From sequence record NZ_LR134454.1: 64,000 nucleotides of DNA; one strand, given 5' to 3'. Below, piece after piece: positions 22,051-48,962 of this stretch. Made by a program: the position numbers and the translations under genes. This DNA comes from a plasmid. Below the pieces are notes generated by a model. That model saw only the letters and a program-made list of their open reading frames with translations. It was not told the origin of the DNA and did no database searches. Numbering within the stretch: position 1 is the first letter of the stretch; every line of letters begins with the position of its first letter.

Positions 22051-22084
22051 GCGAAAATTCCTTTCCGGTGAACCGGTTCTAGGG

Positions 22085-22747
22085 CTAGGCCCGGCTCGAA
22101 AGTAGCGAGGACAGGGGACGGAACGGCTGCAGCCACGCACCCTCGTCGGGCAGCGAATCGAGGCTCACCCGTGGCAGCGGCTCGCGGAACACCCCGGCGA
22201 TGTCCTCGAGATCGACGAACTCCAGAGTAGGGGACGCCAGCGCCCAGGCGGCGTGCTCGCGGAACCCGAGGACGGTAACCGGTACACCGCTTGCGGAGAT
22301 CTCCTCCAGCGGCTCGCGGAAGGCCTGGCCGTCCGCGGAGGCGACGAGGAGCCCACCGAGGCCCGGCGAGTACCGCCGGACGTCGATGTGATCGAGCATG
22401 TCCTCGTCGACGTCGCTGTCGTCGTCGATCTTGGGCTTGGCGAAGACCGCGTAGCCCACGTTGCGCAGGGCCTCGACCCAGGGGCGGACCACGTCTGCGG
22501 TGCCGGGCGCGATGTTGGTGAAGACGGTGGCCTCGGGCTCGAGCCGGGTGTCCGTGTCCGATTCCAGGCCGGCCGTGTACTCCAGGAGCCAGCGGCCCAG
22601 CGCGTCGAAGCGCGGGCGGTGCGCGGCGGTCGGGCGGCCGCCGAGGATCGAGCCGAGCCCCATGTCGAGGTTGGGCGCGTCCCAGACGAGCAGGACGCGC
22701 TTGGCCGCGTCGGGCTGCGGGTCGGTGGGTGCGTCGAGCGGAGTCAC
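22085..22747 (-). CDS. NYN/LabA-like domain protein (Rv0207c-like conserved hypothetical).
   Basis: Conserved core RVLLVWDAPNLDMGLGSILGG. Its position between trmB and mmpL3 is as in M. tuberculosis. Start taken as GTG at 22747; an ATG at 22777 is an alternative. Confidence 0.6.
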   Translation of the reverse strand: MTPLDAPTDPQPDAAKRVLLVWDAPNLDMGLGSILGGRPTAAHRPRFDALGRWLLEYTAGLESDTDTRLEPEATVFTNIAPGTADVVRPWVEALRNVGYAVFAKPKIDDDSDVDEDMLDHIDVRRYSPGLGGLLVASADGQAFREPLEEISASGVPVTVLGFREHAAWALASPTLEFVDLEDIAGVFREPLPRVSLDSLPDEGAWLQPFRPLSSLLSSRA

Positions 22748-23590: not shown

Positions 23591-24319
23591 ATGATCGTGC
23601 GTAACTCTCGCCACACGGCGCTCCGCCTCGCCTCCACGGTGGTGGCCCTGCTCGCCGTCGTCGGCCTTCTGGCCGCTTGCTCGAAGAGCGACGGGGAGAA
23701 GGTCAACGACGCGCCGCTGCCCGACGCCAAGACCCTGATCGACGCCTCGTCGAAGGCCGCCCGCGAGCTGCACGACGTGCAGCTGGACCTCTCCGTCGAG
23801 GGCACCGTGCCGAACCTGCCCGTCAAGAGCGTCTCCGCGTATCTGACCAACCAGCCCAAGGTCTCCGGCCAGGGCGATGCCGAGGTGACCTTCAACGGCA
23901 CCCAGGTCAAGGCGAAGTTCGTGGTCGTCGACGCCCACCTGTGGGCGCAGTTCGGCGCCGGCCAGTCGTACCAGGACATGGGCCTCGCCTCCGCCATCTA
24001 CGACGCCTCCGCCATCCTCGACCCGAACAAGGGCATCGCCAACCTCATCTCCTCCGTCCGCGAGCCCAAGGTCGAGGGCCGCGAGCAGATCGGCGGCACC
24101 GAGGCCGTGCGCATCTCCGGCATCATCCCCGGCACCGCGCTCGCCGGCATCGTCCCCAAGGCCGCGCTCGGCGACCGCCCGCTGACCTTCTGGGTGCAGG
24201 AGGCCGCGCCGAACAACCTCGTCCGCGCGAACGTCGGCTTCGATTCCGGAACGCTGACGGTCACGCTCTCGGACTGGGGCAAGAAGGTCACCCTGCTCGA
24301 CCCGAAGACCGCGAAGTGA
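23591..24319 (+). CDS. lprG: LprG/LppX-family lipid-binding lipoprotein.
   Basis: Signal peptide and lipobox LLAAC. Similar to M. tuberculosis LprG along the whole length (LPDAK.L, ILDPNKGIANLISS, TLSDWGKKVTLLDPK). Its stop overlaps the start of the downstream MFS gene, as in the lprG-Rv1410c operon. Confidence 0.85.
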   Translation: MIVRNSRHTALRLASTVVALLAVVGLLAACSKSDGEKVNDAPLPDAKTLIDASSKAARELHDVQLDLSVEGTVPNLPVKSVSAYLTNQPKVSGQGDAEVTFNGTQVKAKFVVVDAHLWAQFGAGQSYQDMGLASAIYDASAILDPNKGIANLISSVREPKVEGREQIGGTEAVRISGIIPGTALAGIVPKAALGDRPLTFWVQEAAPNNLVRANVGFDSGTLTVTLSDWGKKVTLLDPKTAK

Positions 24320-25950
24320 CCGTCACCGCGGCGCCGGCCGCGCCGGGCCGCGTGCGCGGCCGCGGCGTCGCGATGGGCGCCGCGGGACTGGCCGTACTTC
24401 TCGGCGCGCTCGACACCTACGTGGTGGTCTCGGTGCTCGAGGACATCATGCGCAGCGTCGAGATCCCCATCAACCGGATCCAGCTGGCCACCCCGATCAT
24501 CACCTGGTACCTGCTGGGCTACATCGCGGCGATGCCGCTCCTCGGCCGCCTCTCGGACCGGTTCGGCCGCCGGCTGGTGCTGCAGGCCAGCCTGGCGCTG
24601 TTCATCGTCGGGTCCGTAGTGACGGCGCTCGCCGGCACGGTGGAGATCGCCTTCCATGTTCCGCTGACCGGGCTCGACCTCGACGTCACGGCGCTCGACC
24701 AGGTGCTCGTGGGCCGCGTGGTCCAGGGCGTCGCGAGCGGCGCACTGCTGCCCGTGACGCTCGCCCTCGCCGCCGACCTCTGGTCCGCGCGCCGACGGGC
24801 CGCCGTGCTCGGCTGGGTCGGCGCGGCGCAGGAGCTGGGCAGCGTGCTCGGCCCCGTCGTGGGCGTGGGCGTCGTGACGCTGGTGCACAACCACTTCTCC
24901 TCGGTGCCCCGCGACGACGCCTGGCGCGTCGTCTTCTGGATCAACGTGCCGCTCGCGCTCCTCGCGATGGTGCTGCTGCAACTGACGGTCCCGAAGCGGG
25001 CGGTGTCGAAGCAGAAGGTCGACGTGGTCGGCGGGCTGCTGCTGGCCGTCGCGCTGGGGCTCTCCGTGATCGGCCTCTACAACCCGGAGCCCGACGGCGA
25101 GCACATCCTGCCGCCGAACGGGGCGTGGCTGCTCCTCGGCGCCGCCATCGCGTTCGTCCTGTTCGCGCTCTGGGAGAGATTCGCGCAGGTCAAGCTCATC
25201 GACACCGCCGGCATGCGGGTCACGCCCTTCCTCGCCGCCTGCGCCGCCTCGGTGTGCGCCGGCGCGGCGCTCATGGTGACCCTGGTCGACATCGAGATCT
25301 ACGCCCGCATGGTGCTGCAGCGCGACGGGGTCGCCGCCGTGCTCACGCTGGTCCGCTTCCTGCTCGCCCTGCCGGTCGGCGCGATCCTCGGCGGCTTCCT
25401 GGCGACGCGGTTCGGTGACCGGATCGTTTCCGTCGTGGGGCTGGTCGTCGCCGCGGGCGGGTACGTGCTCATCGCGAACTGGCCGACCGATGTGCTCTCG
25501 GCCCAGTACCTCGGTTTCCTCCCCGCGCTCGACACCTCGCTCGCGATCGCGGGCTTCGGGCTCGGAGTGGTGATCGGCCCGCTGTCGTCGGCGGCGCTGC
25601 GCGCGGTGCCGCTCTCGCAGGCGGGTATCGCCTCCGCGCTGCTCGTCGTGGCGCGGATGAGCGGCATGCTGATCGGCGTGGCCGCGCTGACCACCTTCGG
25701 CTTCTACCGCCTGAACTCGATCATGGACTCGATGCCGCCGATCGCGCCGCAGGGGAGTTTCGTCGAGACCGGACTCGCCGTGTTCCGGCAGACGCAGGAG
25801 GCCTACGGCCGGATGTTCGGCGAGGTCTTCGGCGTGACCGCGGTGATCTGCCTGGTCGGCGCCGTGATCGCGGTCTTCGTCGCGGGCGGCCGACACGAAT
25901 CGGAGCAATCGCCCACCGAGGACGACGAGGCGCTCGTACCCTCCCGGTAG
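24316..25950 (+). CDS. MFS transporter, P55 (Rv1410c)-like efflux pump partnered with LprG.
   Basis: LAVLLGALDTYVVVSVLEDIMRSVEIPIN, YLLGYIAAMPLLGRLSDRFGRR and 14 TM segments. Strong end-to-end similarity to M. tuberculosis P55. Start coordinate uncertain (GTG at 24316, or a later GTG/ATG). Confidence 0.8.
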   Translation: MTVTAAPAAPGRVRGRGVAMGAAGLAVLLGALDTYVVVSVLEDIMRSVEIPINRIQLATPIITWYLLGYIAAMPLLGRLSDRFGRRLVLQASLALFIVGSVVTALAGTVEIAFHVPLTGLDLDVTALDQVLVGRVVQGVASGALLPVTLALAADLWSARRRAAVLGWVGAAQELGSVLGPVVGVGVVTLVHNHFSSVPRDDAWRVVFWINVPLALLAMVLLQLTVPKRAVSKQKVDVVGGLLLAVALGLSVIGLYNPEPDGEHILPPNGAWLLLGAAIAFVLFALWERFAQVKLIDTAGMRVTPFLAACAASVCAGAALMVTLVDIEIYARMVLQRDGVAAVLTLVRFLLALPVGAILGGFLATRFGDRIVSVVGLVVAAGGYVLIANWPTDVLSAQYLGFLPALDTSLAIAGFGLGVVIGPLSSAALRAVPLSQAGIASALLVVARMSGMLIGVAALTTFGFYRLNSIMDSMPPIAPQGSFVETGLAVFRQTQEAYGRMFGEVFGVTAVICLVGAVIAVFVAGGRHESEQSPTEDDEALVPSR

Positions 25951-25990: not shown

Positions 25991-26710
25991 ATGGGGGATC
26001 TGTCCGTGCGCCGCGGCGCGCCACGGGTGCGGCTGCTCGGTCGCGCCGGCGTCGGGAGGACGGTGCTGGGCGCGGCGCTGCGGGCGCGCGCCGTCGAGAC
26101 GGTCGAGGACGACGGCGCCGCCGACGCGGCGCTGTACTGCTTCGCCGGGGGCCTGCGCGCCACCGACCGCGCCGCGATCGAGGGGCTGAGCGCCGACCCC
26201 GCGGGACCGCCGGTGATCGCGTGGACGAAGGCCGACGCCGCGGGCTCGTGGCGCGCCGCCGACGACTACGCCGCCCGCCTCGGCGAGGTGCTGGGCCGAC
26301 CGGTGATCGCGGTGATGGCGCTGCTCGACGGCGTGGACCCCGGCGACCTGCCCGCGATCCGCCGCCTCGCGGAGTCCGGGCTCGCGCTGCCGGAATCGGC
26401 GCTCGCCGCCGCGGAGGCGCTCGGCGAGGACGCCCCGTTGCTGCGCCGGTTCGGCGGCTACGGGCTGGCCTGCGCGCTGGGCGCACTGCGCGAGACCCCG
26501 TCGATGCCCGACGACGTGCTGCTGGCGAGCCTGCGCGACCTGAGCGGCGTCGACGCGCTGCTGTCGCCGCTCGCCGCCGCCCTGCAGGGCCACGAGGCGC
26601 GCCGCGAGGCGGAGTTCGACCGCACGCTGCGCGCCGTCGCCGCGACGGACTGCGCGCGCCGCGACGAGGCCGAGCAGCTGCTGCTGGACCGGCTGGGGCG
26701 GGCGTCGTGA
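25991..26710 (+). CDS. Hypothetical protein with a degenerate GTPase-like fold (P-loop Lys replaced by Arg).
   Basis: RLLGRAGVGRT is Walker-A-like with Lys replaced by Arg. FAGG resembles G3 (DxxG). AWTKADA resembles G4 ((N/T)KxD). No other recognisable domain. Confidence 0.45.
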   Translation: MGDLSVRRGAPRVRLLGRAGVGRTVLGAALRARAVETVEDDGAADAALYCFAGGLRATDRAAIEGLSADPAGPPVIAWTKADAAGSWRAADDYAARLGEVLGRPVIAVMALLDGVDPGDLPAIRRLAESGLALPESALAAAEALGEDAPLLRRFGGYGLACALGALRETPSMPDDVLLASLRDLSGVDALLSPLAAALQGHEARREAEFDRTLRAVAATDCARRDEAEQLLLDRLGRAS

Positions 26711-27762
26711 CGGTCCTGGTGGCCGGGCAGGACCCGGCCGGCGCGGCCGCGGTCGCCGACCGGCTGGGCGGGGACGCCGCGGCCGTCGGCGCCGACGGCG
26801 TGCCGGTCCCGCTCGGCGAGCACCGCGGCGAGCACGACGTGCTGGTCTACGTCCTCGACGCCTGCGTCCCCGCCGATGCGGTCGACGCCGCCGCGCTCGG
26901 CCGCCTCCGCGCCGGCCTGCCGACGGTGCTCGCCGCCACCGGCGCCGACGTCTACCCCGACGCCGCGGACGTCCTCGCAGCGTCCGGGCGCGTGTTGGGC
27001 GGCGACGTGGTGAGCGTCCAGCCCGACTCGGGCGGCGGCTTCGACGCGCTGCGCGCCGCCCTCGCCGACCCGCTCCCCGCGCGGCCCCTCGCGCCCGCCG
27101 GCCCGCCCGCCGCGCCGCCGAACCCCGCGCTGGAGCGGGCGGACCGTTCGGCCTACCTGCGCTCGACGATCGCGCGGGTGCGGGCCGCGCTGCTCGCCGA
27201 CTCCGCGGAGGGCTTCCGGCGCCACGAGGACGAGCCCGGCGCCGACGTGCGGCCGCGGCTCACCGGCGTCGCCGTGGCGCTCGAACGCTCGCTGTACGCG
27301 CAGCTGTGCGCGGCCTACCGCGGCACCTTCGCGGGCTGGCCCGATCCGCCGGAGCCCGCGGTGCCGGTGCTTCCCCGACCCGACCCGCCGGAGGCGCCCG
27401 CGCACCGTCGCCGGCCCGAGGACCTGGCGGTGCTGATCCTGGGTGCGTCCGCCGGGCTCGGCATCGGCCGGGCCGTGGCCGCGCCGCTCGAGGCGCTGGG
27501 CGCGCTGCGCTGGCTCGCCCTGCCGATCAGCCTCGCCGTCGGACTCGCCGCGGCGGTGTGGCTGCTGCGGGTGCGCCGCCGCTCGACCGTCCGGGCGGAC
27601 CGCCGGAGCTGGGCGGACGCCGCCGCGGCCGGCTTCCGGCAGCGCGTCGAGTTCGAGCTGGCGGCGGCGCTGGTCGCCGCGGAGGCCGATGCCGCGCTGC
27701 GGCTCGCGCGCGGACCGGGAACCGATCGGGAGGCTGGTGCGTCCAATGAGTATGGACCCTGA
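26707..27762 (+). CDS. Hypothetical protein with a second degenerate GTPase-like N-terminal domain and two C-terminal TM helices.
   Basis: The GTG start overlaps the stop of the upstream gene. N-terminal VLVAGQDPAG...LAATGADV. C-terminal hydrophobic pair LAVLILGASAGLGIGRAV / LALPISLAVGLAAAVWLL. Confidence 0.4.
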   Translation: MTVLVAGQDPAGAAAVADRLGGDAAAVGADGVPVPLGEHRGEHDVLVYVLDACVPADAVDAAALGRLRAGLPTVLAATGADVYPDAADVLAASGRVLGGDVVSVQPDSGGGFDALRAALADPLPARPLAPAGPPAAPPNPALERADRSAYLRSTIARVRAALLADSAEGFRRHEDEPGADVRPRLTGVAVALERSLYAQLCAAYRGTFAGWPDPPEPAVPVLPRPDPPEAPAHRRRPEDLAVLILGASAGLGIGRAVAAPLEALGALRWLALPISLAVGLAAAVWLLRVRRRSTVRADRRSWADAAAAGFRQRVEFELAAALVAAEADAALRLARGPGTDREAGASNEYGP

Positions 27763-28087
27763 TTTCGGGCTGTTCGGGGCGCCGGACGCGGACGCGTTCG
27801 GCCCGGGCCTGTTCGACGGTGCCGTCCCCGCCGCCGAGCCCTCGCCCGGCGGGCTCTGGGTGCACGCCGAGGACGGCTGGTACGACGTGCACGCCCTGGA
27901 CACGGACGGCGACGGACTGGTCGACACGGGCACCCTCACCGACGCCCAGGGCACCGCCGTGTTCACCGATCTCGACGCCGACGGGGTGGCCGACGTCTAC
28001 CACCGGGTGCGGCCCGACGGGACCTTCGAGACCTGGCGCTTCGGCGACGGCCGGTGGCGACTCCTGGATAGGGGCGACATTGCTTGA
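27746..28087 (+). CDS. Small (113 aa) Asp-rich protein with two EF-hand-like DxDxDG loops.
   Basis: HALDTDGDGLVDTGTL and FTDLDADGVADVY both fit DxDxDGxxD. The gene overlaps the upstream gene by 17 nt and ends 46 nt before the NRPS start. It is not MbtH-like (no SxWP/W motifs). Confidence 0.5.
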   Translation: MSMDPDFGLFGAPDADAFGPGLFDGAVPAAEPSPGGLWVHAEDGWYDVHALDTDGDGLVDTGTLTDAQGTAVFTDLDADGVADVYHRVRPDGTFETWRFGDGRWRLLDRGDIA

Positions 28088-28133: not shown

Positions 28134-31100
28134 ATGGCGAACCGGTTCAAGGGGAGGCGCGCTGCGCGCGCCGGAGTGACGCTGACCCGGGCGCAGGAGC
28201 ACGTTCTCGCCGCGCGCGCGGCCGATGGGCAGGGTCCGCTCTGGACGATCAGCGAGTACATCGTCCTCGACGGGGACGTCGACGACGCCGTGCTGCGCCG
28301 CGCCGCCGCGTACGTGGCGACGGCGGCCGAGCCCCTCGTGGTCCGGATCGACGAGAAGGCGCACACCCAGGTCACCGGAGCCGGTACCACGGTTGTCGTG
28401 GAGGAGGTCGACCTGCGCCACGCGGCCGATCCCGAGGAGGCGGCCCGCAGGTTCGCCGCGGACCGTCTGGCCTCGCCCCCGCGCGCGCCCCGGGTCCGCC
28501 TCGCCCTCGTCCGCACCTCCGCGACCCGGGTGCGGCTGCTGCTCGAATGCGACCTCGCGGTCGCCGACGGCTACACCGCCGCCCGCGTCCGCGCCGCGAT
28601 CGCCCGCGCCTACACCGCCCTGGTCGAGGGCCGCACCCTGCAGGCGGACCCGATCCGTCCGCTGCGCGCGCTGCGCGACGCCGAATCCGGCTACCTCGCC
28701 TCCCGCGACCGCGCGGAGGACGCCGCGTACTGGCGCGCCGCCGGCCTCCCGGGCCCGACCACGCTTCCGGGCGGCGCACCGTCGGGCGCCCCGAACGGCC
28801 AGGTCCGGGCGCCGTTGCTGTCCGTTCCCGCGGAGCTCGTCGGCAGCCTCGACGCCGAGGCCCGCGCCGTGGGCGTGCGGAACTTCACCGTCGCCGTCGT
28901 CGCGGCAGCGCTCGTCGCCGCGCGCCGCACCGGCGCCGAGCGGGTGCGGGTCGACCTGCCCGTGTCCGGCCGCATCGACGAGACCGGCCTCGACACCGAC
29001 GGCGCCGCGGGCACCACCATCGCCGTGCGCGTCGACCTCCCGCCGGCGGGCACGGTGCGGGAGTGCCTGCGCGCCGTCGACGCCTCCATCCGGCAGGCCT
29101 TCCTGCACCAGCGCGGCCGCCCGCTCGACGGCGAGCACGGCTCGACGGGCCTGGTCGTGAACTACCTGCAGCCGATCCCGGAGGACTTCGCCGGCGTGCC
29201 CGGTGGCACCGAGGTGATCAACGCCGGCCCCGTCCGGCACCTCGCCTTCGTCGCGCTCGCGATGGACGACGGCCTCGTCCTCGACGTCCGCGGCCGCGCC
29301 GGGGTCTTCGACGACGAGCAGGTCGCCGCCCTCGCCGCCGAGTGGCGCGGCGCCATCGCCGCGCTCGTCGCCGACCCCGACGCGCCGCTGGGCCCGCTCC
29401 GCGAGGTCGTTGTCGCCTCGGAGCCGGCCACCCCGGACGCCGCCGCGGTGGGTACCGCCGTCGGCGGCGACGACGTCGCGCTCGTCGCGCAGTTGCTGAG
29501 CGACATCCTCGGCGTGCCCGACGTGGGCCCCGACGATTCGCTCTTCGACCTGGGCGGCACCTCGCTGGTCGCGGTCCGGGTCACCGACCGGCTCGCCGAG
29601 CTGCGCGGCGTCCAGATCCCCGCGGTCGACGTCTTCGACAACCCCACGCCCCGCGGCCTGGCCGCGCTGCTCGCGACGGCGCCGCCCGTCGCCACGCCTG
29701 CGCCGAGCCCTTTGAGCGGCATCGCGATCGTCCCGGCGTCCGGGTCCGAGGACGCCGCGGCATCGTCGACCCCGGCCCCGTCCGGCCCGGTGATCCCGTC
29801 CCTGGGCGACGTTCCGGAGGCCCCCGCCTCGCACGCGCAGGCCGGCCTGTTCCGCGACTTCCAGCTCTCCGGGCCCTCGCCGGTCTACAACATGCCGCTG
29901 GTACTCGACTTCGACGAGCCCGTGGACGCCGCCGCGATGGCCCTCGCCGTGCGGGACGTGGTGATCAAGCACCGGGCGCTGCGCACCGTGCTGCGGCTGC
30001 GCGGCGACGACGTGGTGCAGGACCTCACCGTTCCCGTCGACGACGCCCGGCTGCTCGAGCGGCGCACCGTCGCCGCCGACGACCGCGACGACGCCGCCCG
30101 CGAGTGCGCCGCGTACGCCTTCGACCTCGCCGCGGAACCGCCCTTCCGGGGCTGGCTGCTGGAGGACGCCGACCCGGACGAGCCGCAGCGGATGGTCCTC
30201 GTGCTGCACCACACCGCCGGCGACGGCGCGTCCGTGGGGCCGCTGCTGCGCGACCTGGTCGCCGCCTACGCGGCCCGCCGCTCGGGCGTCGCGCCGGATC
30301 TCGGCGCCCCCGCCGTCGAGTACGCCGACGTCGCCGCGTGGCAGGTCGCGCGGCTGCGGGACCCCGACGGCCCGGTCGTGGCGCAGCGCGAGTTCTGGCG
30401 CCGCACGCTCGACGGTGCGCCCGCCGAGACCGCGCTGCCCGTCGACCGGCCGTACCCCGCGGAGAACGGCTTCGCCGGTGGCACTGTCGATCTCGCGTGG
30501 CCCGCCGAGCTCACCGCGTCGCTGCGGACCGTCGCGCGCGCGTCCGGAGCGAGCCTGTTCATGGTCCACTACGCCGCCCTCGCGGCGCTGCTGTCGAAGC
30601 TCGGCGCGGGCGACGACGTGGTGATCGGCACCGCCGCGTCCGGTCGCCCCGCGTCGTGCGACGACGTGGTCGGCATGTTCGTCAACCTGCTGCCCCTGCG
30701 CACCACCGTCGACTGGTCGGCCCCGTTCGAGGAGTACCTGCGGCGCACCCGCGCGACGGTCCTCGACGCCTACGCGAATCAGGACGTGCCGTTCGGCGAG
30801 GTCGTCGCGATGCAGCCCCGCGGCTCGGCCGCCCGTCACCCCGTCTTCCAGGTGATCCTCGGCTGGAACGAGGACCCGGGCTGGGGCGACGTGCGGGACG
30901 TCCTCGGCGCCGAGGTGGCGCCGATGGCCGCCGGCACGTCCCGCGCGGACCTGCTGTTCAGCATCACCGAGTCCGCCGACGGCCTCGCCGGCGGCGTCGA
31001 GTACCGCACCGACGTCTTCGACCGCGCCACGATCGAGACCCTGGTCGCCCGCTGGCGGCGGCTGCTCGAGCAGATCGCCGCGGAGCCGCGGACCCCCGTC

Positions 31101-34100
31101 GCGGCCCTCGACGTGCTGCTCGACGCCGAGCCCGCCACCCTCGCGGCGTGGGGCGCACCGTCGGGCCCGCAGCCCACCCGCGTCGTGCCCGACCTGATCG
31201 ACGAGTGGATCCGCACCAGCCCCGACGCGCTCGCCCTCGTCGACGACGAGGAGTCGCTGACCTACGCCGACCTCGACCGGGAGGCGAACCGCTGGGCCCG
31301 CCACCTGCACGGCGAGGGCGTCCGCCCCGGCGACGTGGTCGCTGTGACGGTGCCCCGCTCGGCGCGGCTCCTCGTCGTGGAGCTGGCCGTGCTGCGCGCC
31401 GGCGCCGCGTACCTGCCGATCGACCCCGCGTACCCCGCGGAGCGCATCGCGTTCCTGCTGGAGGACGCGGCGCCCCGCCTCGTGGTCGGCGCCGACACCG
31501 TCCCCGACCTGCAGCGGTTCGACGGCGCGCCGCTCACCGACGCCGAGCGGGGCCGGCCCCTGCGACCCGAGGACGCCGCGTACGTCGTCTACACCTCCGG
31601 CACGACCGGCACCCCGAAGGGCGTCGTGGTGCCGCACGCCGGTGCCGCCGGCCTGGCCGCGGCGATCGTCGCCGAAACCGGGGCGGGCCCGGGCGCGCAG
31701 GTGCTGTCGAACTTCTCGGTGGGCTTCGACATCTCCTTCTGGGACCTGCTCAGCGCGCTCGCCACCGGCGGCACGCTGCGGATCTCCGCCGAGACCCGCG
31801 TCGGCGACGAGCTCGCCGACTTCGTCGAGGAGCACGGCGTCACGCACGCGCTCATCACCCCGTCGGTCCTGGCCGCGGTCACGCCGGGCCGGATGGCCTG
31901 CCTGACCTCGCTCACCGTGGGCGCCGAGGCGGTCACGCGGCCGCTCATCGAGGCCTGGGCACCCGGGCGCCGGCTGATCAACGCGTACGGCCCCACCGAG
32001 CTCACCGTCGCCACGACCGTCGGGCGGCTCGAACCCGGCGCCGACGTGGTGTCGATCGGCCGCCCCATCGGCGGCTCCCGCGCGTACGTCCTCGACGCGG
32101 GGCTGCGCCGCGTGCCGCCGGGCGTCGTCGGCGAGCTGTACGTCGGCGGGCCGGGCGTCGCGCGCGGCTACGGCGGCCGTCCGGGCCTGACGGCGTCGCG
32201 GTTCGTCGCCGACCCGCTCGGCGCCGACGGCGACCGCGTCTACCGCACCGGCGACCTCGTGCGCTGGCTGCCCGGCGGCGAGCTCGAGTACGTCGGCCGC
32301 GCCGACGACCAGGTGAAACTGCGCGGCTTCCGGATCGAGCCGGGCGAGGTCGAGGCCGCGCTCGCCGCATGCCCCGGCGTCAGCGCCGCCGCGGTCGTCG
32401 TGCAGGGCGACGGTGCCGCCCGCCGCCTCGTCGGCTACGTCACCGGCACGGCGACCGAGCCGGACGCCCGGGCCTTCGCGGCGCGGAGCCTGCCCGCGCA
32501 CATGGTGCCCGCCCGCGTGGTGGTGCTCGACGCGCTGCCGCTGACCGCGAACGGCAAGGTCGACCGCGCGGCGCTGCCCGCGCCCGACGCCGGCGACGAG
32601 GCCCGTTACCGCGCCCCCGGCACCTCCGCCGAGGAGCTCCTCGCCGGGGTCGTCGCCGAGGTGCTCGGCGTGGAGCGGGTCGGCGTCGACGACTCCTTCT
32701 TCGAACTGGGCGGCGACTCGATCACGGCGATCCAGCTGGTGGGCCGCGCCCGCGCCGCGGGCCTGACGCTGACCGCCCACGACGTCTTCGCGCACCGCAC
32801 CGTCGCGGGGCTCGCCGCCGTGGCCGGCGTGGCCGATCCCGCGGACGCCGTGCCCGACGACGGCGTCGGTGAGATCCCGCCGACGCCGGTCCTCACCTGG
32901 TTCGCCGCGCGCGGCGGTACGCCGGACGGCTTCCACCAGTCGGTGCTGGTCCGCACCCCGTCGTCGGTCGACATCGCGACGGTGCACGCGCTGACCCAGG
33001 CCGTCCTCGACCGGCACGACGCCCTGCGCGCGGAGATCGGCGAGGCGCCCGGCGGGGGCCTCTCGCTCACCGCGCGGCCCGTCGGCGCGGTCGCCGCCGC
33101 CGACGTGGTGGACCGCGTCGACGCCACCGGTCTCTCCTTCGACGAGGTCGGCGCGATGATCGCCGCCCAGCACCGCCGGGTGACGGCCCTGTTGCGCCCG
33201 GGCGCACCGTCGCTCCTACGGGTCGTGTGGTTCGACCTGGGCCCCGAGCGGGAGGGCGCGCTGCTGGTCGCGGCGCACCACTTCGTCGTCGACGGCGTCT
33301 CCTGGCGCATCCTGCTCACCGACCTCGCAACCGGCTGGCACGCCGCCTCGACGGGCCGGCCCGTGGTGACGGCCCCGGTGGGCAGCTCCTTCCGCCGCTG
33401 GGCGACGGTGCTCGCCGACCGCGCCGGGCAGGTGGGCCCGGACGAGCTCGCGTACTGGCGGTCCGTGCTCGACGGTGCGCCGTCCCTGGTCGACGGTGCG
33501 CTGGACCCGACCCGCGACACCCACGGTTCCGCCGGCCATGCCGAACTGACCCTGTCCGCCGACGTCGCCGCGCCGTTGCTCGGCGCGGTGCCCGAGGCGT
33601 TCCACGCGGGCGTGCAGGACGTGCTCCTCGCGGCCTTCGCGACCGCGGTGACCGCTTGGGCGGGCGAGCGCGGACGCGACGCCGAATCGGCGCTCGTCGA
33701 GGTGGAGACGCACGGCCGCGACGAGACCCTGGCCCCCGGCCTGGATCTCACGCGCACCGTCGGCTGGTTCACCAACGTCCACCCGCTGCGGCTGCGGCCG
33801 GGCGCGGGTGCCGACGCCGCCGCGGCGGTCAAGAACATCAAGGAGCAGCTGCGGACCGTCCCGGACGGCGGTATCGGCTACGGCCTCGCGCGGTTCGGCG
33901 GCGCCGCGGCGGCGCAGGAGTTCGCGGGACTGCCGCAGCCGGAGATCGGCTTCAACTACCTGGGCCGCACGACCGGCGCGAGCGACCGCGACTGGGCGCC
34001 CGACCGCCGCTTCCCCGACCTCTCCCCGGCGCCCGACGGGCTCGCGCTGCTGCACGCCGTGGAGGTGAACGCGGTCGCCCGCGACGGCGCCGACGGGCCG

Positions 34101-37100
34101 GAGCTCGTCGCGTCGTGGACGTGGGCGCCCGCGCTCGTCGACGAGGACGCGGTGCGCCGCCTCGGCGCGCTGTGGTTCGACGCCCTGCGCGGCGTCGTGG
34201 CCGCGGCCGACGACGCCGGCGGGCACACGCCCTCCGACTTCCCGCTGGTCGCCCTCACCGCGGCGCAGGTCGAGCGGCTCGACGAGCGCTACCCGGGCCT
34301 GCAGGACGTGCTGCCGCTGACCGCGCTGCAGCAGGGCTTCCGGTATCACGCGGAGCTCGGCGACGCCGACGACGAACGGCCCGACCCGTACGTGGTGCAG
34401 ACGGTGATCGACTTCGCGGGCGCCCTCGACGAGGGCCGCTTCGCGGCGTCGGTCGCGGCGCTCCTGGCCCGCCGCGAGGCGCTGCGCGCCCGGTTCGTCG
34501 CCGACGGCCTCGACGCGCCCGTCCAGGTCATCGCCGCCCCCGGGCCCGCGCCCTACCGGTACGAGGATGTGCGCGCGGACGACGACCCGGAGGGCCGGTT
34601 CGCCGAACTCGCCGCGGCCGAGCGGCGCCGCGGCTTCCGCCTCGACCGCGACCTCGGCATGCGGTTCCTTCTGGTCCGGGTGGGGGAGCGGGACTTCCGG
34701 CTGGTGGTGACCAACCACCACATCCTGTGGGACGGCTGGTCGGCTCCGGTGATCTTCCGCGACCTGCTGGCCGGCTACGCGGGCCTCGACCCCGACGCCG
34801 CCGGCGTCCCGCGGGCGACGCTGCGCGACTACTTCACCTGGCTGCGGGGCCGCGACGGCGACGCCGCGCGCACCGCGTGGGCCGCCGAGCTCGACGGCCT
34901 CGACGAGCCGACGCTCGTCGCCCGCGACCTCCCGCGCGCGCACCCGAGCGGCGCCGCGCGCGGGCCCGGAGCCGACGGCGGACCGTCGGGCCCGGAGCAG
35001 GACGAGGTCCGCGCGACCATCCCCGCCAACCTGACCGCGGCCGTCACGCGCCTCGCGGGCCGCCTCGGCGCCACGCCGGGGGCGGTGCTGCAGGCCACCT
35101 GGGCGATCGCGCTCGGCGGCGCGACGGGCCGCGGCGACGTGGTCTTCGGCTCCGTGCAGTCGGGCCGCCCCGCGCAGCTCGACGGCGTCGAGGACCTGGT
35201 CGGCCTCCTCATCACCACCTCCCCGGTGCGGGTGGACCTGGACCCGCGGCGCACCGTCCGCGAGGTCGCGCTCGGCGTGCAGGAGCAGTACGTGCGCCTG
35301 CTCGACCACCAGCACCTCGGGCTGACGGGCATCGCCCGCGCGGCCGGGCGGGACGAGCTCTTCGACTCGCTGTTCGTGGTGGAGAACTACCCGTCGACCG
35401 CGGGCGCGACGATCCCCGGCACCGATGTCGAGGTCGTCGACGTGCGCGGCGACGACGCCACCCACTACCCGCTGTCCGTCGCCGTGGTCCCGGGCGAGAC
35501 CCTGCACGTCCGCGCGGGCTTCCGCACCGACGCGGTGGACCGCGCGGCCGTCGAGGACCTCCTCGACCGGTGGCGCCGGATCCTGACCGCCGCGGTCGCG
35601 CGCCCCGACGCCCGGCTCGCCGACATCGACGGCGCAGGGGAGACCGAGCGGCTGCTGGTGCGGCGCTGGGGCGGCGCGATCGGCGGCGTGCCCGCCCGCA
35701 CCCTGCCCGAGCTGTTCGCGCGCCGCGCCGCGGCCCGGCCGAAGTCCCGGGCCGTCGCGGGCGAGGGCACGCCCCTCACCTACGCCGAGCTCGACGCGCT
35801 CTCGAACCGGTGGGCGCGCCGCTTCCTCGCCGAGGGCGTCGGCCCGGGCGACGTGGTCGCCGTGACCGCGCCCCGCTCGATCGGCTTCGTCGCCGTCGTG
35901 CTCGGCGTCGCGAAGGCCGGCGGCGCGTTCCTGCCCATCGACGCCGCGACGCCGCGGGAGCGGATCGAGGCCATGTTCGCCGACGCGCACCCCGTCCTCG
36001 AGGTCGACGGTGCGCTGCTCGACGCGGGGCCCGGCGGGGACGCGGGCGAGGAGCCCGTCACCGACGCCGACCGGCGTGCTCCCCTGACCCCGCAGGACGC
36101 GGCCTACGTCATCTTCACCTCGGGCTCGACGGGCACGCCCAAGGGCGTCACCGTCACCCACGCCGGCCTCGCCGACCTGGTGCGGACCTTCGACGAGCTG
36201 GATCTCGGGCCGGGGACCCGGATGCTGCACAACGCGTCCGTCGGCTTCGACGCCGCGGTCTGGGAGCTGCTGTGCGCGCTCGGCACGGGCGGCACGCTGG
36301 TCGTCTCGGCGACGGTGCGCGCGGGCCGCGAGCTCGCCGCCTTCGTCGAGAAGTACCGGGTCACCAACGCGGTGCTCACGCCCTCCGTGCTGGCGTCGGT
36401 GCCGGAGAGGCGGATGCGGGGCCTGACGTCGCTGGTGGTCGCCGCCGAGGCGGTGCCGCGTGCGCTCGTCGACCGCTGGGGCCCCGGCCGCCGGCTGGTC
36501 AACGCCTACGGCCCCACGGAGGCCACGATCGCGGTCTCGTTCGCGCGGATCCGCCCCGGCGAGTCCGGCCCGGTGCCCATCGGCCGCCCCGTCCGCGGCA
36601 TGGCGGTCCGGGTGCTCGACGGCGCCCTCCGCCGCGTCGCGCCCGGCGTCGTGGGCGAGTTGTACGTCGCGGGCGCCGCGGTGGCCCGCGGCTACGTCGG
36701 CCGGCCGGGCCTCACGGCGTCCCGGTTCGTCGCCGACCCGTACGGTGGCGCCGGGACCCGCATGTACCGCACGGGTGACCTGGTCCGGTGGCTGCCCGAC
36801 GGGACGCTGGAGTACGTGGGGCGCGCCGACGACCAGGTGAAGATCCGCGGCGTCCGCGTCGAGCTCGGCGAGGTGGAGGCGGCGCTGGCCGCCTGCCCGG
36901 GCGTGAGCGCCGCGGTCGCCGCGGTGCGCGACGGCGCCACCGGTGCGCGGCTCGTCGGGTACGTCGTCGCGCCCGGCCTCGCGCCCGACGAGGTGACGGC
37001 CGCCGTCGCCCGCCGGCTGCCCGCCGCGATGGTCCCGTTCGTCGTGGTGCTCGACGCGCTGCCGCTGACCCCGAGCGGCAAGCTCGACCGGGCTGCGCTG

Positions 37101-38528
37101 CCGGAGCCGGTGTTCGCCGCCGCGGCCGGGTACCGGGCCCCCGAGACCGAGGAGGAGCGGGCCATGGTCGCGCTGTTCGAGTCGGTCCTCGAGGCCGAGG
37201 GCGTGGGCCTGGACGACTCCTTCTTCGAGCTGGGCGGCGACTCGTTGTCGCTGATGCGGCTCGTGGACCGCGTGGACGTCGACTTCGGGGTCCGCGTCCC
37301 GATCGTGGGGCTGTTCGAGAGCGCCACCCCGGCGTCGGTGCTCGCGTCGCTGTCGGCGGCGGGAGGGGCGCGCGCCGGCGTCGAGGTCCCCGTCGACGAC
37401 GTGCGGTTCGCGCCGGCCACGCCCGACGTGGTGCCGAGCGGGCACGAGGTCCTCGTCACCGGCGCCACCGGCCTGCTGGGCGGGCACCTGATCCGGGCCG
37501 TGCTCGAGGCGGACCCCGCGGCGCGCGTGCGGGCCCTGGTCCGCGCCCGCGACGAGGCGTCGGGGCTGGAGCGGATCCGCGCGACGATGCGGGGCTACGG
37601 CTCCTGGTCGGACGGCTACGAGGACCGCATCACCGCGCTCCCCGGCGACCTCGCCGAGCCGGGCCTGGGCGTGGACGCGGCCGTGTGGGATCGCGTCATC
37701 GAGCAGGTCGACGCGATCATCCACTGCGGCGCGCGGGTCAACCACGTCGAGCCCTACCCGCGGCTGCGGGCCGCCAACGTCGACTCCACGCGGTTCCTGC
37801 TGGAGCTGGCCTCGCGGCGGCCGGGGACGGTCTTCCAGTTCGTCTCCACCATCTCCGCCGCGGGCGCCTTCGAGGAGATCCCCGACGCCGGGTACACGCA
37901 CTCGAAGTGGGTGGCCGAGCGGGTCGTGGAGCTCGCGGCGGCGAGCGGCGTCCCGTCGACGATCCTGCGTCCCGGCCTCCTGACGGGCGCCCTGGACTCG
38001 GGCGCGACGAACACGGACGACGCCTTCTGGAACCTGGTGCGGTCGATCGCGACGGTCGGCGCGGCACCGTCGGAGCTGCTGGACCAGACGATCGAGATGA
38101 CCCCCGTCGACCGCGCCGCGGAGGCGATGGTCGAGGTCCTCCGCACGGGCGACGAGCCGCTGCGGACGCTCGAGGTGGGCAGCGGCTCGCGGGTGAGCTG
38201 GCGGGAGATCGTCGGGGCGCTGCGCCGCGGCGGCTATCCCGTCGAGGCGGTGCCGGGGCACGTCTTCCTGGAGCGGCAGACCGCCGCGTTCCGCGACCGG
38301 CCGGAGGTGGCGGGGGCGCTCGCGCGCGCCATTCTGCTCATCCGTGCAGGTCTGGAGCGTGAGACCGTCGGCGAGGGTGGCGGCTGGACCCCGACGAGCG
38401 CCGCCGACGGGCGGATCGGGCTCGACGGTGACCGGGGTCCCGTCGGGGACGCCGGGCTCGACGTCTACGTCGACTACTTGGTGCGCATCGGCTTCCTCCC
38501 GCGCGTGGGGAAAGGGGCCGAGGTGTGA
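28134..38528 (+). CDS. Non-ribosomal peptide synthetase, 3464 aa, dimodular with a terminal reductase. Domain order: C* (degenerate)-T-C-A-T-E-C-A-T-R.
   Basis: aa 1-440: condensation-like fold with ECDLAVADG in place of HHxxxDG. aa ~470: [15 protein letters not shown]1 [11 protein letters not shown]1 cores [64 protein letters not shown]1 [12 protein letters not shown] domain [13 protein letters not shown]2 [11 protein letters not shown]2 cores [44 protein letters not shown]2 [12 protein letters not shown] domain [19 protein letters not shown]...YTHSKWVAE (thioester reductase). Confidence 0.9.
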
Positions 38529-38621
38529 TGTGAGATGTTGCACGTCACCCTCGGTTCTGTGACCTTGCCCGATGTGTGACACTGGTTCAAAGGTTCGTAT
38601 GCGACTTTGGAGATGACACCT

Positions 38622-42078: not shown

Positions 42079-42197
42079 GGCAATCCTCCGAGGAGTGAAC
42101 GGCTACCAGTGTGATGCTGGCTACAACGAGATCGACTATTGCATGTCAGGATGGATCCGTGCAATAAATGTGAATATCCAATCGTACGGAGGTAGAA

Positions 42198-43379: not shown

Positions 43380-43837
43380 GCATCGACCGCGACGCCGCGC
43401 TGGCGCTCGCCCTGCCCGAGTTCCCCGTCGACGTCGAGCGCGGCCGGTTGCGGTTCTTCGCGCAGGCGATCGGCGAGACCGATCCCGTGTTCACCGATCT
43501 CGGCGCCGCCCGCGCCGCGGGCCACCGCGACCTGCCCGCCCCGCCGACCTTCGTCTTCAGCCTCGCGCTGGAGGCGCCGGACCCCTTCGGCTACCTCGGC
43601 GACCTCGGAATCGACCTGCGGCACATCTTGCACGGCGAGCAGCGCTTCGACCACCATGCCGTCGTGTACGCCGGTGACCGGATCACCGTGCGGGAAAGCA
43701 TCGTCGACGTCTACGCCAAGAGCGGCGGCGCCCTCGATTTCCTGGTCAAGCGGTCCGAGTTCCTCCGCGACGGCGAGCCGGTCGCCACGGCCACCTCGAC
43801 GATCGTCGTCCGTCGCCCGCAGGAGGCCGCCGCATGA
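43376..43837 (+). CDS. MaoC-like hotdog hydratase subunit (N-terminal type).
   Basis: 153 aa. The start overlaps the ltp stop. Hotdog-fold composition, paired with the downstream MaoC dehydratase. Confidence 0.65.
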   Translation: MSIDRDAALALALPEFPVDVERGRLRFFAQAIGETDPVFTDLGAARAAGHRDLPAPPTFVFSLALEAPDPFGYLGDLGIDLRHILHGEQRFDHHAVVYAGDRITVRESIVDVYAKSGGALDFLVKRSEFLRDGEPVATATSTIVVRRPQEAAA

Positions 43838-44232: not shown

Positions 44233-44256
44233 CCCCCACCCCGAAGGAGCACAACC

Positions 44257-45087: not shown

Positions 45088-45107
45088 GCGCCCTAGGCTT
45101 GGACCCC

Positions 45108-46268: not shown

Positions 46269-46283
46269 CGGCGCGGCGCCGGT

Positions 46284-48911: not shown

Positions 48912-48962
48912 CGACGACCGTCGTGCCCCCGCGGCGGGGCACGGCGGTGGGTCGGCGGGCCG

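What the first reader, a model, noticed from the sequence alone, without database searches (positions are those of the whole stretch)
28134..29700. The NRPS begins with a condensation-like domain lacking the catalytic HHxxxDG (ECDLAVADG), followed by a free-standing carrier domain, before the first canonical C domain
A C-fold domain missing both histidines cannot catalyse canonical amide formation. Placed in front of a T domain, it could be a docking or acyl-accepting module, a pseudo-C domain, or a lipid-loading device. The normal starter C (HHTAGDGAS) comes only after this C*-T pair. The architecture C*-T-C-A-T-E-C-A-T-R predicts an N-capped D-configured dipeptidyl aldehyde or alcohol.
Basis: seen in the sequence. 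Interest (0 to 1): 0.6.

Follow-up and report, generated by a model that had tools for sequence, protein, structure and literature searches.

The report
His-less starter C domain plus orphan carrier
A Tsukamurella peptide synthetase begins with a lipid-starter-type condensation domain that has lost its catalytic histidines, fused directly to a carrier domain that has no activating domain of its own; both are kept by selection, so this is an unusual but recognisable variant of a known "adenylation-less" starter module.

Summary
ORF 28134-38528 (+, 3464 aa) is an NRPS with the order C*-T0-C1-A1-T1-E-C2-A2-T2-R. C* is a complete condensation fold, with D140-L141-AVA-D145-G146 where relatives have HHxxxDG. 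T0 keeps its phosphopantetheine serine.

- C* is itself the starter-type domain. Its best sequence and fold matches are CDA-C1 and RzmA-Cs.
- C1 is an ordinary LCL-type elongation domain, not a starter.
- C2 is DCL-type.

The gene is a single-gene insertion between a DUF6802 gene and pckA in one Tsukamurella sub-clade. All eight NRPS1 genes whose motif region I read carry Leu (CTC or CTG). A neighbouring paralogue keeps His (CAC), so sequencing error is excluded.

C* and T0 are not decaying. Their dN/dS (0.26 and 0.30) equals that of the catalytic domains, against 0.59 for linkers.

The closest known system is LgnD (C-T-C-A-T). However, no trans A-T didomain or shuttle thioesterase lies nearby.

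Most likely C*-T0 is an adenylation-less first module with a crippled starter C. How T0 is loaded is unresolved. I rate it a new variant of a known kind, of moderate interest.

The parts
28134..38528 (+). NRPS1 gene, 3464 aa: C*-T0-C1-A1-T1-E-C2-A2-T2-R
   Evidence: ORF list and translation; Pfam domains; six full-length Tsukamurella orthologues of 3447-3487 aa, 80-89% identical
28134..29408 (+). C* (aa 1-425): complete starter-type condensation fold without the catalytic histidines
   Evidence: PF00668 73.6 bits. CDA-C1 E 1e-21 over aa 17-419. AF2 pLDDT 86.8, pTM 0.87. Foldseek TM 0.84-0.85 to CDA-C1 and RzmA-Cs. dN/dS 0.26, CI 0.21-0.31.
28545..28571 (+). ECDLAVADG (aa 138-146). D140 aligns with His1, L141 (CTC, nt 28554-28556) with His2; D145 and G146 are retained.
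   Evidence: Alignments. Codons in eight genomes. The paralogue NRPS2 reads GAC CAC, i.e. D-H.
29409..29474 (+). C*-T0 linker: Ala/Pro-rich, 22 aa here and up to about 45 aa in orthologues; no remnant of an A domain
   Evidence: Orthologue alignment; linker dN/dS 0.59
29475..29693 (+). T0 carrier domain (aa 448-520), Ser477 at nt 29562-29564; there is no A domain in its module
   Evidence: PF00550 62 bits. GGTS motif invariant in orthologues. dN/dS 0.30. Nearest relatives are ordinary internal PCPs.
29694..29813 (+). T0-C1 linker: about 40 aa here and up to about 60 aa in orthologues, Ala/Pro-rich, variable in length
29814..31142 (+). C1 (aa 561-1003): LCL-type elongation condensation domain, HHTAGDG at aa 692-698
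   Evidence: PF00668 237 bits; PDB relatives DhbF, FscG, TycC; context typing 331 after T, 0 after E
31143..32603 (+). A1 adenylation domain; specificity code DIWSTGAVAK
   Evidence: Pfam; code extracted against GrsA-PheA, identical in six orthologues
32616..32843 (+). T1 carrier (GGDSI, the form typical upstream of E domains)
32871..34238 (+). E epimerisation domain (HHFVVDG)
34251..35603 (+). C2: DCL-type condensation domain (HHILWDG)
   Evidence: All 56 C domains that follow an E domain in related NRPSs best match C2
35631..37118 (+). A2 adenylation domain; code DAWSVAAIAK. I read the ninth position (A331) by eye from the [11 protein letters not shown] segment, because the script left a gap there.
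37146..37358 (+). T2 carrier (GGDSL)
37431..38528 (+). R: terminal NAD(P)H-dependent reductase (GATGLLG; YTHSK), followed by the stop codon
   Evidence: PF07993 180 bits; motifs seen in the translation

Best explanation
C*-T0 is the first module of a three-carrier, two-adenylation NRPS, and it has no adenylation domain.

Shown:
- C* is a starter-type (lipoinitiation-type) condensation domain.
- It is the paralogue of the His-bearing N-terminal C domain of a neighbouring Tsukamurella NRPS (NRPS2: C*'-A-T-C-A-T-R).
- One transversion (CAC to CTC) has replaced the substrate-positioning His2 with Leu. His1 is Asp in both paralogues.
- C* and T0 are maintained by purifying selection.
- T0 is intact and lies upstream of an intact LCL-type C1.
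- The gene arrived as a single-gene insertion.

Inferred:
- T0 is charged by something other than an in-module A domain.
- C1 joins that cargo to aa1 on T1. The E domain makes aa1 D-configured. DCL-type C2 adds aa2, and R releases X-D-aa1-aa2 as an aldehyde or alcohol.
- C* no longer performs efficient amide-forming lipoinitiation.
- Most likely, C* is kept as a non-catalytic or only weakly catalytic partner of T0. It would act as a platform that binds and presents T0, and perhaps an acyl donor, during loading.

How likely: about 0.85 for the domain typing and evolutionary statements. About 0.35 for 'non-catalytic platform' as the specific role of C*. The figure in the confidence field is for the statement as a whole.
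For: Fold and subtype of C*.

His2 to Leu is fixed. NRPS1 reads CTC or CTG in eight genomes; the paralogue reads CAC. All but three of the 62 nearest starter C domains read HH at these two positions (two read HQ, one SH), and none lacks both histidines.

Selection: dN/dS is 0.26 for C*, 0.30 for T0 and 0.27-0.28 for C1, A1, E and C2, against 0.59 for linkers. As a positive control, pairs that include a visibly dead relic copy rise to 0.37-0.52.

No acceleration after the His loss. C* has 33.4 lineage-specific changes against 39.9 for the His-bearing paralogue. It keeps 42 of 60 family-conserved positions against 39 of 60.

C1 is LCL type with an intact motif in all orthologues. That only makes sense if T0 delivers a cargo.

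The same Cs-T-C-A-T start, with HH intact, occurs in unrelated NRPSs P0061, P0118 and P0143. It has been characterised in LgnD (PMC8748450).

Mutating His2 in a starter C nearly abolishes activity (RzmA H140V, PMC7804268).
Against: No loader for T0 was found.
- The 64-kb window holds no stand-alone A, A-T, type II thioesterase or MbtH gene.
- The only AMP-binding gene (40546-42078, minus strand) is a housekeeping-type long-chain fatty-acid--CoA ligase, and it is absent from this position in the two genomes whose downstream flank I could read (T. ocularis and the relic strain).
- The three upstream genes also occur in genomes that lack the NRPS.

Constraint on C* as strong as on the catalytic domains fits a ligand-binding or catalytic role at least as well as a scaffold role.

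The acyl-pocket positions known from RzmA-Cs are small and invariant in C* (C139, A144, A149), and D145 and G146 are kept. This hints that an acyl donor is still bound.

His2 is not essential in every C domain (PMC10510592).

All of this is in silico. No product is known.
Confidence: 0.5

Rival explanations
1. C* is a self-loading lipid device. It binds acyl-CoA (or acyl-ACP) at the donor site and transfers the acyl group to the free phosphopantetheine thiol of T0 by thiol-thioester exchange. That reaction has no amine to position and so needs no His. C1 then N-acylates aa1, giving N-acyl-D-aa1-aa2-al/ol.
For: - It explains why a single inserted gene needs no partner.
- It explains why C* is as constrained as the catalytic domains.
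- D145, G146 and a small-residue acyl pocket (C139, A144, A149) are invariant. The equivalent changes in RzmA-Cs open the pocket for C12-C16 chains, and the H140V mutant still binds C8-CoA (PMC7804268).
- LCL-like C domains can take acyl-S-T donors: the C domain after AL-T in PvdL matches C1 (104 bits) but not C*.
- T0 sits on long flexible tethers.
Against: - One full-text search for a condensation domain that loads a carrier thiol found no precedent.
- The nearest relatives of T0 are ordinary aminoacyl or peptidyl PCPs.
- The paralogue has the same pocket residues, so they may simply be inherited.
Confidence: 0.15
2. C* is still a working starter C with a non-canonical active site. T0 is aminoacylated, in cis by A1 or A2 or by an unlinked A domain, and C* then N-acylates it without His2. 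The product would be an N-acyl tripeptide aldehyde or alcohol.
For: - Purifying selection and retained family-conserved residues.
- LgnD works this way with an A-less T (PMC8748450).
- Some C domains keep activity without His2 and Cy domains use DxxxxD (PMC10510592). D140...D145 has that spacing.
Against: - In the closest solved homologue, H140V gives only an 'extremely low yield' (PMC7804268).
- None of the 62 nearest starter C domains lacks both histidines; 59 read HH and three have a single substitution.
- No A-T or shuttle thioesterase is nearby.
- C* is not Cy-like by sequence or fold.
Confidence: 0.15
3. T0 is loaded in trans with a fatty acyl chain by one of the fatty acyl-AMP ligases (FadD/FAAL) common in Mycobacteriales. 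C* serves only as its docking site, or is inert.
For: From general knowledge of Mycobacteriales, FAALs load N-terminal carrier domains of PKS and NRPS enzymes (for example FadD32 with Pks13, and FadD10 with Rv0100). The single-gene insertion could rely on host enzymes. C1-type domains can accept acyl-S-T donors.
Against: The only nearby FadD is CoA-ligase type (PRK06187, 522 bits) and its position is not conserved. No FAAL was identified. Nothing ties C* to FAAL binding.
Confidence: 0.1
4. C*-T0 is evolutionary baggage. Synthesis starts at A1-T1 and the product is a free D-aa1-aa2 dipeptide aldehyde, which could cyclise to a pyrazinone as in AusA-type systems.
For: C* lacks both His and T0 has no A domain. 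One strain carries a decaying copy of the whole gene.
Against: - dN/dS of C*, T0 and C1 equals that of the working domains and is half that of the linkers.
- Relaxed selection is detectable where it does exist.
- The HHxxxDG of C1 and Ser477 of T0 are invariant in all intact copies.
- C* evolves no faster than its His-bearing paralogue.
Confidence: 0.1

Closest known systems
LgnD of legonmycin/legonindolizidine biosynthesis (C1-T1-C2-A2-T2-TE; PMC8748450), and the C-T-C-A-T module 7 of WS9326A
   Same: The NRPS starts with a starter C followed directly by a carrier with no A domain, and then a second C-A-T. The same start with HH intact occurs in P0061, P0118 and P0143.
   Different: - LgnD-C1 is catalytically active. 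Its T1 is fed by a clustered A-T protein (LgnB) through a shuttle thioesterase (LgnA).
- Here His1 and His2 are Asp and Leu, and no A-T or thioesterase lies within the window.
- C1 here is a plain LCL domain rather than a dehydrating C.
- C*, T0 and C1 are not specifically related to the corresponding domains of the HH-intact comparators, so the architecture arose independently.
Starter (lipoinitiation) C domains CDA-C1 (4JN3/5DU9) and RzmA-Cs (7C1H and related entries)
   Same: Best sequence hits (E 1e-21 and 1e-15) and best fold hits (TM 0.84-0.85). N-terminal position. D and G of the motif are retained, as are 42 of 60 family-conserved positions.
   Different: HH is replaced by DL. The acceptor carrier has no cognate A domain.
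Tsukamurella paralogue NRPS2 (L008 9959-17395; C*'-A-T-C-A-T-R)
   Same: C*' is 48% identical to C* and shares the LLLECD...ADGYTAARV context. C1, T1, T2 and R each have a counterpart at 53-60% identity.
   Different: NRPS2 keeps His2 (DHSIADG), has an A domain after C*', and has no extra T0 and no E domain. It is absent from this window.
Non-catalytic C-fold domains: the glycopeptide X domain (HRxxxDD, recruits P450s; PMC11546977, PMC10510592) and the N-terminal C-like domain of ACV synthetase (PMC7884236, title and abstract only)
   Same: A C-fold domain that lacks the canonical motif yet is retained inside an assembly line.
   Different: The X domain sits before the terminal TE with P450 genes nearby. 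The ACVS domain precedes an A domain. C* is not closest to the X domain (4tx2 is not among its top hits), and no partner enzyme genes are nearby.
Reductase-terminated dipeptide NRPSs (AusA-type A-T-C-A-T-R; C-A-T-C-A-T-R enzymes of the mycobacterial Nrp/Rv0101 type, the latter from my own knowledge)
   Same: Terminal R domain with intact TGxxGxxG and YxxxK motifs. Two A domains. Predicted release as a peptide aldehyde or alcohol. C1 gives a partial NCBIfam hit to AusA.
   Different: Extra C*-T0 at the front and an E domain in module 1.

Membership tests
NRPS condensation-domain superfamily (PF00668, CAT-like two-lobed fold) | Profile match above the curated threshold over both lobes | tested here: met
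   73.6 bits against a cutoff of 30.6; aligned over aa 17-419 to CDA-C1
NRPS condensation-domain superfamily (PF00668, CAT-like two-lobed fold) | V-shaped two-lobe structure | tested here: met
   AF2 pLDDT 86.8, pTM 0.87; Foldseek TM 0.84-0.85 to solved C domains
NRPS condensation-domain superfamily (PF00668, CAT-like two-lobed fold) | HHxxxDG active-site motif | tested here: not met
   DLAVADG. His1 is Asp and His2 is Leu in all eight NRPS1 genes read.
Starter C (Cs, lipoinitiation) subtype | First domain of the first module, and closest to characterised Cs domains | tested here: met
   All 62 domains that best match C* are N-terminal; top PDB sequence and fold hits are CDA-C1 and RzmA-Cs
Starter C (Cs, lipoinitiation) subtype | Second His positions the donor acyl group and the acceptor amine | tested here: not met
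   L141; the role of this His is described in PMC7804268
Starter C (Cs, lipoinitiation) subtype | Acceptor is an aminoacyl-S-T loaded by the A domain of the same module | tested here: not met
   A 22-aa linker joins C* directly to T0, with no A domain between them
Starter C (Cs, lipoinitiation) subtype | Uses an acyl-CoA or acyl-ACP donor | not testable with these tools
   Indirect only: small pocket residues C139, A144, A149 and retained G146 (PMC7804268)
LgnD-type A-less starter module | N-terminal domain order C-T-C-A-T | tested here: met
LgnD-type A-less starter module | Clustered stand-alone A-T (LgnB-like) that activates the residue for the orphan T | tested here: not met
   None in the 64-kb window. 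The gene is a single-gene insertion. The rest of the genome was not searched.
LgnD-type A-less starter module | LgnA-like type II thioesterase shuttle | tested here: not met
   No thioesterase or alpha/beta-hydrolase gene was found next to the NRPS. The HH-intact comparator P0061 does have TEII, A-T and MbtH genes adjacent.
LgnD-type A-less starter module | Catalytically competent first C domain | tested here: inconclusive
   The motif is lost but the domain is under purifying selection. Activity cannot be tested in silico.
Heterocyclisation (Cy) domains | DxxxxD motif in place of HHxxxD, plus Cy-specific homology | tested here: not met
   The D140...D145 spacing matches literally. However, no Cy structure appears among the sequence hits at E<=1 or among the top 50 fold hits.
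X-domain / recruitment-type C-like domains | His-deficient C fold with partner tailoring-enzyme genes adjacent | tested here: not met
   No P450 or hydroxylase genes flank the NRPS. The X domain 4tx2 is a hit for C1 but not a top hit for C*.
Reductase-released NRPS (peptide aldehyde or alcohol) | C-terminal SDR-type R domain with nucleotide-binding and Tyr/Lys motifs | tested here: met
   PF07993 180 bits; GATGLLG at aa 3110 and YTHSK seen in the translation

The most novel reading that the evidence does not exclude
C* has been converted from an amide-forming starter C into a His-independent S-acyltransferase. It would charge its own downstream carrier (T0) from acyl-CoA or acyl-ACP. That would make it a condensation-fold loading domain that replaces an adenylation or FAAL step and lets a single inserted gene make a lipopeptide aldehyde unaided.
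Probability: 0.15. Interest if true: 0.75.

Novelty: new variant of a known kind. Interest (0 to 1): 0.42.

Why it matters
Adenylation-less C-T starter modules are known (LgnD, WS9326A), and so are His-less C-fold domains (X domain, Cy). This case combines both in one self-contained gene and adds a natural comparison set:
- a His-bearing paralogue;
- intact orthologues in several species, six of them read end to end, all with Leu;
- sister species that lack the gene;
- one decaying relic.

It is therefore a convenient system for asking what a condensation fold does once its catalytic histidine is gone. It also bears on how an orphan carrier domain gets loaded when no partner genes are nearby.

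If C* proves to load T0 itself, that would be a new activity for the C superfamily and a compact lipoinitiation part for NRPS engineering. If C* is only a scaffold, the finding is a modest curiosity. The product, a short D-residue-containing peptide aldehyde or alcohol from clinically isolated Tsukamurella species, is unknown either way.

Tried and rejected
1. Sequencing or frame error restoring HH: rejected. Eight independent NRPS1 genes read Leu (CTC or CTG), with silent variation in the neighbouring codons.
2. 'Not a C fold': rejected.
3. C* as a decaying pseudo-domain: rejected. Its dN/dS equals that of the catalytic domains, the relative-rate test shows no acceleration, and the relic control shows that relaxation is detectable.
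4. C1 as a starter C: rejected.
5. Cy-domain reading of DxxxxD: only the spacing matches; there is no Cy homology.
6. FadD-like gene at 40546-42078 as the T0 loader: unlikely. It is a PRK06187 long-chain CoA ligase inside a lipid-catabolism block, and the block is absent at this site in T. ocularis and in the relic strain.
7. The three high-GC upstream genes (25991-28087) as NRPS accessories: rejected. They are present, in the same order, in T. paurometabola and T. pseudospumae, which lack the NRPS.
8. P0004 as a natural 'T0 deletion experiment': uninformative, because the whole gene is degraded there.
9. Simple origin of NRPS1 by deletion of an A domain from an NRPS2-like ancestor: not supported. 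T0 has no specific counterpart (43-45% identity to every T domain).
10. Common ancestry with the HH-intact Cs-T-C systems: not supported.
11. Word-index homologue search with C*: only one real hit plus one chimeric artefact, P0002.
12. Literature search for a C domain that loads a carrier thiol from acyl-CoA: nothing found.
13. Searches on 'Tsukamurella' with 'nonribosomal peptide synthetase': no titles or abstracts suggesting a study of this gene.
14. An NCBIfam call and a Pfam call failed because the coordinates were out of frame; the Pfam call was repeated. One literature search failed because a search term was too long.
Full report
**What is there.** The window is high-GC actinobacterial DNA. 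ORF 28134-38528 (+) encodes a 3464-aa NRPS.
- Pfam finds four Condensation-family stretches, two AMP-binding domains, three PP-binding domains and a C-terminal NAD_binding_4 reductase.
- Scanned alone, aa 1-440 score 73.6 bits for PF00668 against a cutoff of 30.6. aa 451-513 are a PP-binding domain. aa 562-1003 are a strong Condensation match at 237 bits.
- Motif positions: ECDLAVADG at 138, GGTS at 474-477, HHTAGDG at 692, GGDSI at 1526, HHFVVDG at 1715, HHILWDG at 2195, GGDSL at 3034, GATGLLG at 3110.

**The motif.** phmmer aligns C* over aa 17-419 to the first condensation domain of CDA synthetase (4jn3, E 1e-21), then to RzmA-Cs, ObiF1, EntF and TomB. That alignment and an MSA with the 62 nearest N-terminal C domains agree on the register.
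- D140 lies opposite His1 and L141 opposite His2. A-V-A fills xxx. D145 and G146 are retained.
- Of those 62 relatives, 59 read HH, two read HQ and one reads SH. None lacks both histidines.

**Fold.** An AlphaFold2 model built on a 17-sequence alignment is confident (pLDDT 86.8, pTM 0.87). Its best PDB matches are the two solved starter C domains, CDA-C1 (TM 0.84-0.85) and RzmA-Cs (TM 0.85), followed by ObiF1. The refutation 'not a C fold' fails.

**Subtyping.** I labelled every C-family domain in 147 related NRPSs from the exhaustive search by which of this protein's domains it matches best. I then tabulated the labels against domain context.

| Label | Context in related NRPSs | Type |
|---|---|---|
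| C*-like | 62 of 62 are the first domain of their protein | starter |
| C1-like | 331 follow a T domain, none follows an E domain | LCL |
| C2-like | all 56 C domains that follow an E domain | DCL |

The PDB relatives of C1 are elongation C domains: DhbF, FscG, Txo2 and TycC. The starter-type domain is therefore C* itself.

**Organism, orthologues and paralogue.** C* relatives are extremely rare.
- The word-index search found one real hit.
- The exhaustive search of 1.8 billion representatives found three clusters before dropping to about 28% identity with generic C domains.
- A genome scan returned nine loci, all Tsukamurella. They include five full-length orthologues at 80-89% identity. T. 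pulmonis was found later.
- Every NRPS1 copy reads Leu at the His2 position: CTC in the window, L001-L005 and the relic, and CTG in T. pulmonis. Neighbouring codons show independent silent changes. Sequencing error is excluded.
- In T. ocularis a paralogue, NRPS2 (C*'-A-T-C-A-T-R), sits just after pckA. Its N-terminal C domain is 48% identical to C* and reads D-H-S-I-A-D-G, with CAC for His.
- C* therefore differs from a canonical-looking relative by one transversion at the key residue. Asp at His1 is shared by both paralogues.

**Is C*-T0 decaying?** No.
- Nei-Gojobori dN/dS over six orthologues, with bootstrap intervals:

| Region | dN/dS | 95% interval |
|---|---|---|
| C* | 0.26 | 0.21-0.31 |
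| T0 | 0.30 | 0.20-0.48 |
| C1 | 0.27 | 0.23-0.34 |
| A1 | 0.28 | 0.23-0.35 |
| E | 0.28 | 0.23-0.35 |
| C2 | 0.27 | 0.22-0.34 |
| A2 | 0.17 | 0.13-0.21 |
| R | 0.18 | 0.13-0.24 |
| the two linkers around T0 | 0.59 | 0.44-0.84 |

- One assembly (GCA_030150815.1) carries a visibly dead copy at the same locus. It is 1964 aa long, its A-domain core motifs are destroyed, T0, T1-E, T2 and R are lost, and the C1 motif reads HRSAADA.
- Pairs that include this relic rise to 0.37-0.52. Relaxed selection is therefore detectable by this method.
- C* has accumulated no more lineage-specific substitutions than its His-bearing paralogue (33.4 against 39.9, averaged over 62 outgroups). It keeps 42 of 60 positions that are at least 75% conserved in the starter-C family, against 39 of 60 for the paralogue.
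- Ser477 of T0 and the HHTAGDG of C1 are invariant. An intact, constrained C1 implies that T0 delivers a cargo.

**Surroundings.**
- The gene order is mmpL, NYN, trmB, an LprG-like lipoprotein, an MFS transporter, two unknown genes, a DUF6802 gene, NRPS1, then pckA.
- T. paurometabola DSM 20162 and T. pseudospumae have the same backbone, but DUF6802 is followed directly by pckA.
- The pckA upstream intergenic sequence survives downstream of the NRPS.
- NRPS1 is thus a clean single-gene insertion. Its GC content is 76-78% against roughly 70% for the flanks. The upstream genes are backbone genes, not accessories.
- No stand-alone A, A-T, thioesterase or MbtH gene lies in the 64 kb.
- The one AMP-binding gene (40546-42078, minus strand) is a PRK06187 long-chain fatty-acid--CoA ligase in a lipid-catabolism block. 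That block is replaced by NRPS2 in T. ocularis and by nothing in the relic strain.

**Comparison with what is known.**
- The N-terminal order starter C, then a T with no A domain, then C-A-T is characterised in LgnD. There an A-T protein (LgnB) and a shuttle thioesterase (LgnA) load the orphan T, and the active C1 N-acylates it. WS9326A has a similar C-T-C-A-T unit (PMC8748450).
- Among the 62 nearest starter C domains, three (P0061, P0118, P0143) have this order with HH intact. P0061 has A-T, TEII and MbtH genes next door. P0118 has a stand-alone AMP-binding gene next door.
- The Tsukamurella unit is not specifically related to them. The best matches of T0 are ordinary internal PCPs, and those of C1 are ordinary LCL domains. 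The architecture arose independently.
- In RzmA-Cs the second His lies within 4 Å of both substrates. H140V leaves only an 'extremely low yield' but still binds C8-CoA (PMC7804268).
- Reviews note that some C domains survive loss of His2 and that Cy domains use DxxxxD (PMC10510592). 'Cannot catalyse' is therefore too strong, and 'severely impaired for amide formation' is fair.
- By alignment, the RzmA acyl-pocket residues Y138, M143 and R148 correspond to C139, A144 and A149 in C*. The same small residues occur in C*'. Small residues at these positions resemble the engineered long-chain RzmA variants. This is a hint from homology, not a test.

**Mechanism.**
- Shown: the domain types, the fixed loss of His, purifying selection, the single-gene insertion and the absence of a local loader.
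- Inferred: T0 receives a cargo X. LCL-type C1 joins X to aa1 (A1 code DIWSTGAVAK). The E domain epimerises aa1. DCL-type C2 adds aa2. The A2 code is DAWSVAAIAK, which from memory is closest to Phe-type codes. R releases X-D-aa1-aa2 as an aldehyde or alcohol.
- What X is, and what C* does, cannot be settled in silico. My ranking:

| Role of C* | Probability |
|---|---|
| Non-catalytic or weakly catalytic platform for T0, which is loaded in cis by A1/A2 or by an unlinked enzyme | about 0.35 |
| Still N-acylates aminoacyl-T0 without His | about 0.15 |
| Transfers acyl from CoA or ACP to the T0 thiol (self-loading) | about 0.15 |
| Host FAAL loads T0 | about 0.1 |
| Baggage | about 0.1 |

- The long, length-variable Ala/Pro-rich tethers on both sides of T0 would let it reach distant sites. 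By the domain boundaries I used, they are 22-45 aa and 40-60 aa, against about 10 aa between T1 and E.

**Verdict.** The interpretation needs correction on which domain is the starter type, and it overstates catalytic death. The feature is a new variant of a known kind: an A-less starter module, here His-less, partner-less and under selection. It is confined to a Tsukamurella sub-clade. Interest is moderate. It would be high only if C* proves to be a loading enzyme.

Noticed in passing
L010 6083-11977 (GCA_030150815.1, contig JASLFE010000511.1): A relic copy of NRPS1 lies at the same locus and is still a 1964-aa open reading frame. Its A-domain core motifs are destroyed, T0, T1-E, T2 and R are deleted, and the C1 motif reads HRSAADA. 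It remains an uninterrupted ORF despite the loss of function.
   Followed up: yes
L008 9959-17395 (T. ocularis S00175); partial copy in L009: A paralogous NRPS2 (C*'-A-T-C-A-T-R, 2478 aa) lies immediately after pckA. Its N-terminal C domain reads DHSIADG. It is absent from the window.
   Followed up: partly
window 40546-48962, compared with L008, L010, L013 and L014: The stretch downstream of pckA carries different cargo in different strains. In the window, T. ocularis and the relic strain it is bounded by a FAD monooxygenase and eccA; the window holds an 8.5-kb lipid-catabolism block (FadD, lipid-transfer thiolase, hydratase, SDR, LPG_synthase_C), T. ocularis holds NRPS2, and the relic strain almost nothing. 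T. paurometabola and T. pseudospumae carry other gene sets after pckA, in T. paurometabola including a transposase. It looks like a recombination hotspot.
   Followed up: partly
window 38529-38606, compared with L014 11424-11558 and L013 11367-11454: The pckA upstream intergenic sequence (...CACGTCACCCTCGG...GTGTGACACTGG...) is conserved whether or not the 10.4-kb NRPS lies in front of it. This marks the downstream edge of a clean single-gene insertion.
   Followed up: partly
window 29409-29474 and 29694-29813: T0 is flanked by unusually long Ala/Pro-rich linkers whose length varies between species (22-45 aa and 40-60 aa). Their dN/dS is 0.59.
   Followed up: partly
window 28548-28580 (aa 139, 144, 149): The positions equivalent to the RzmA-Cs acyl-pocket residues Y138, M143 and R148 are Cys, Ala and Ala in C* and in its paralogue. 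This resembles the engineered long-chain RzmA variants.
   Followed up: partly
window 25991-28087: Three co-directional genes with overlapping or nearly abutting ends and about 79.5% GC: a 239-aa and a 351-aa gene with no family match, and a DUF6802 gene. They are present in every Tsukamurella locus I examined, including species that lack the NRPS. The 351-aa protein has a weak hit to a 492-aa Gordonia protein annotated as 'GTPase Era family' (E 4.6e-11).
   Followed up: partly
window 23591-25950: An LprG/LppX-family lipoprotein gene overlaps the start of an MFS transporter gene. From memory this resembles the mycobacterial lprG-p55 operon. It sits next to mmpL (19024-22140, minus strand) and trmB.
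   Followed up: no
P0002 (ENA protein, 313 aa): This protein is a chimera. It combines an AccD-like N-terminus (precomputed Pfam PF17848) with a 57-aa stretch 98% identical to C* aa 165-221, followed by out-of-frame sequence. It is probably an assembly artefact, not a homologue.
   Followed up: partly
window 50813-52483 (minus strand): An EccA1-type AAA ATPase gene (type VII secretion). None of the adjacent genes I scanned belongs to the ESX core set.
   Followed up: no
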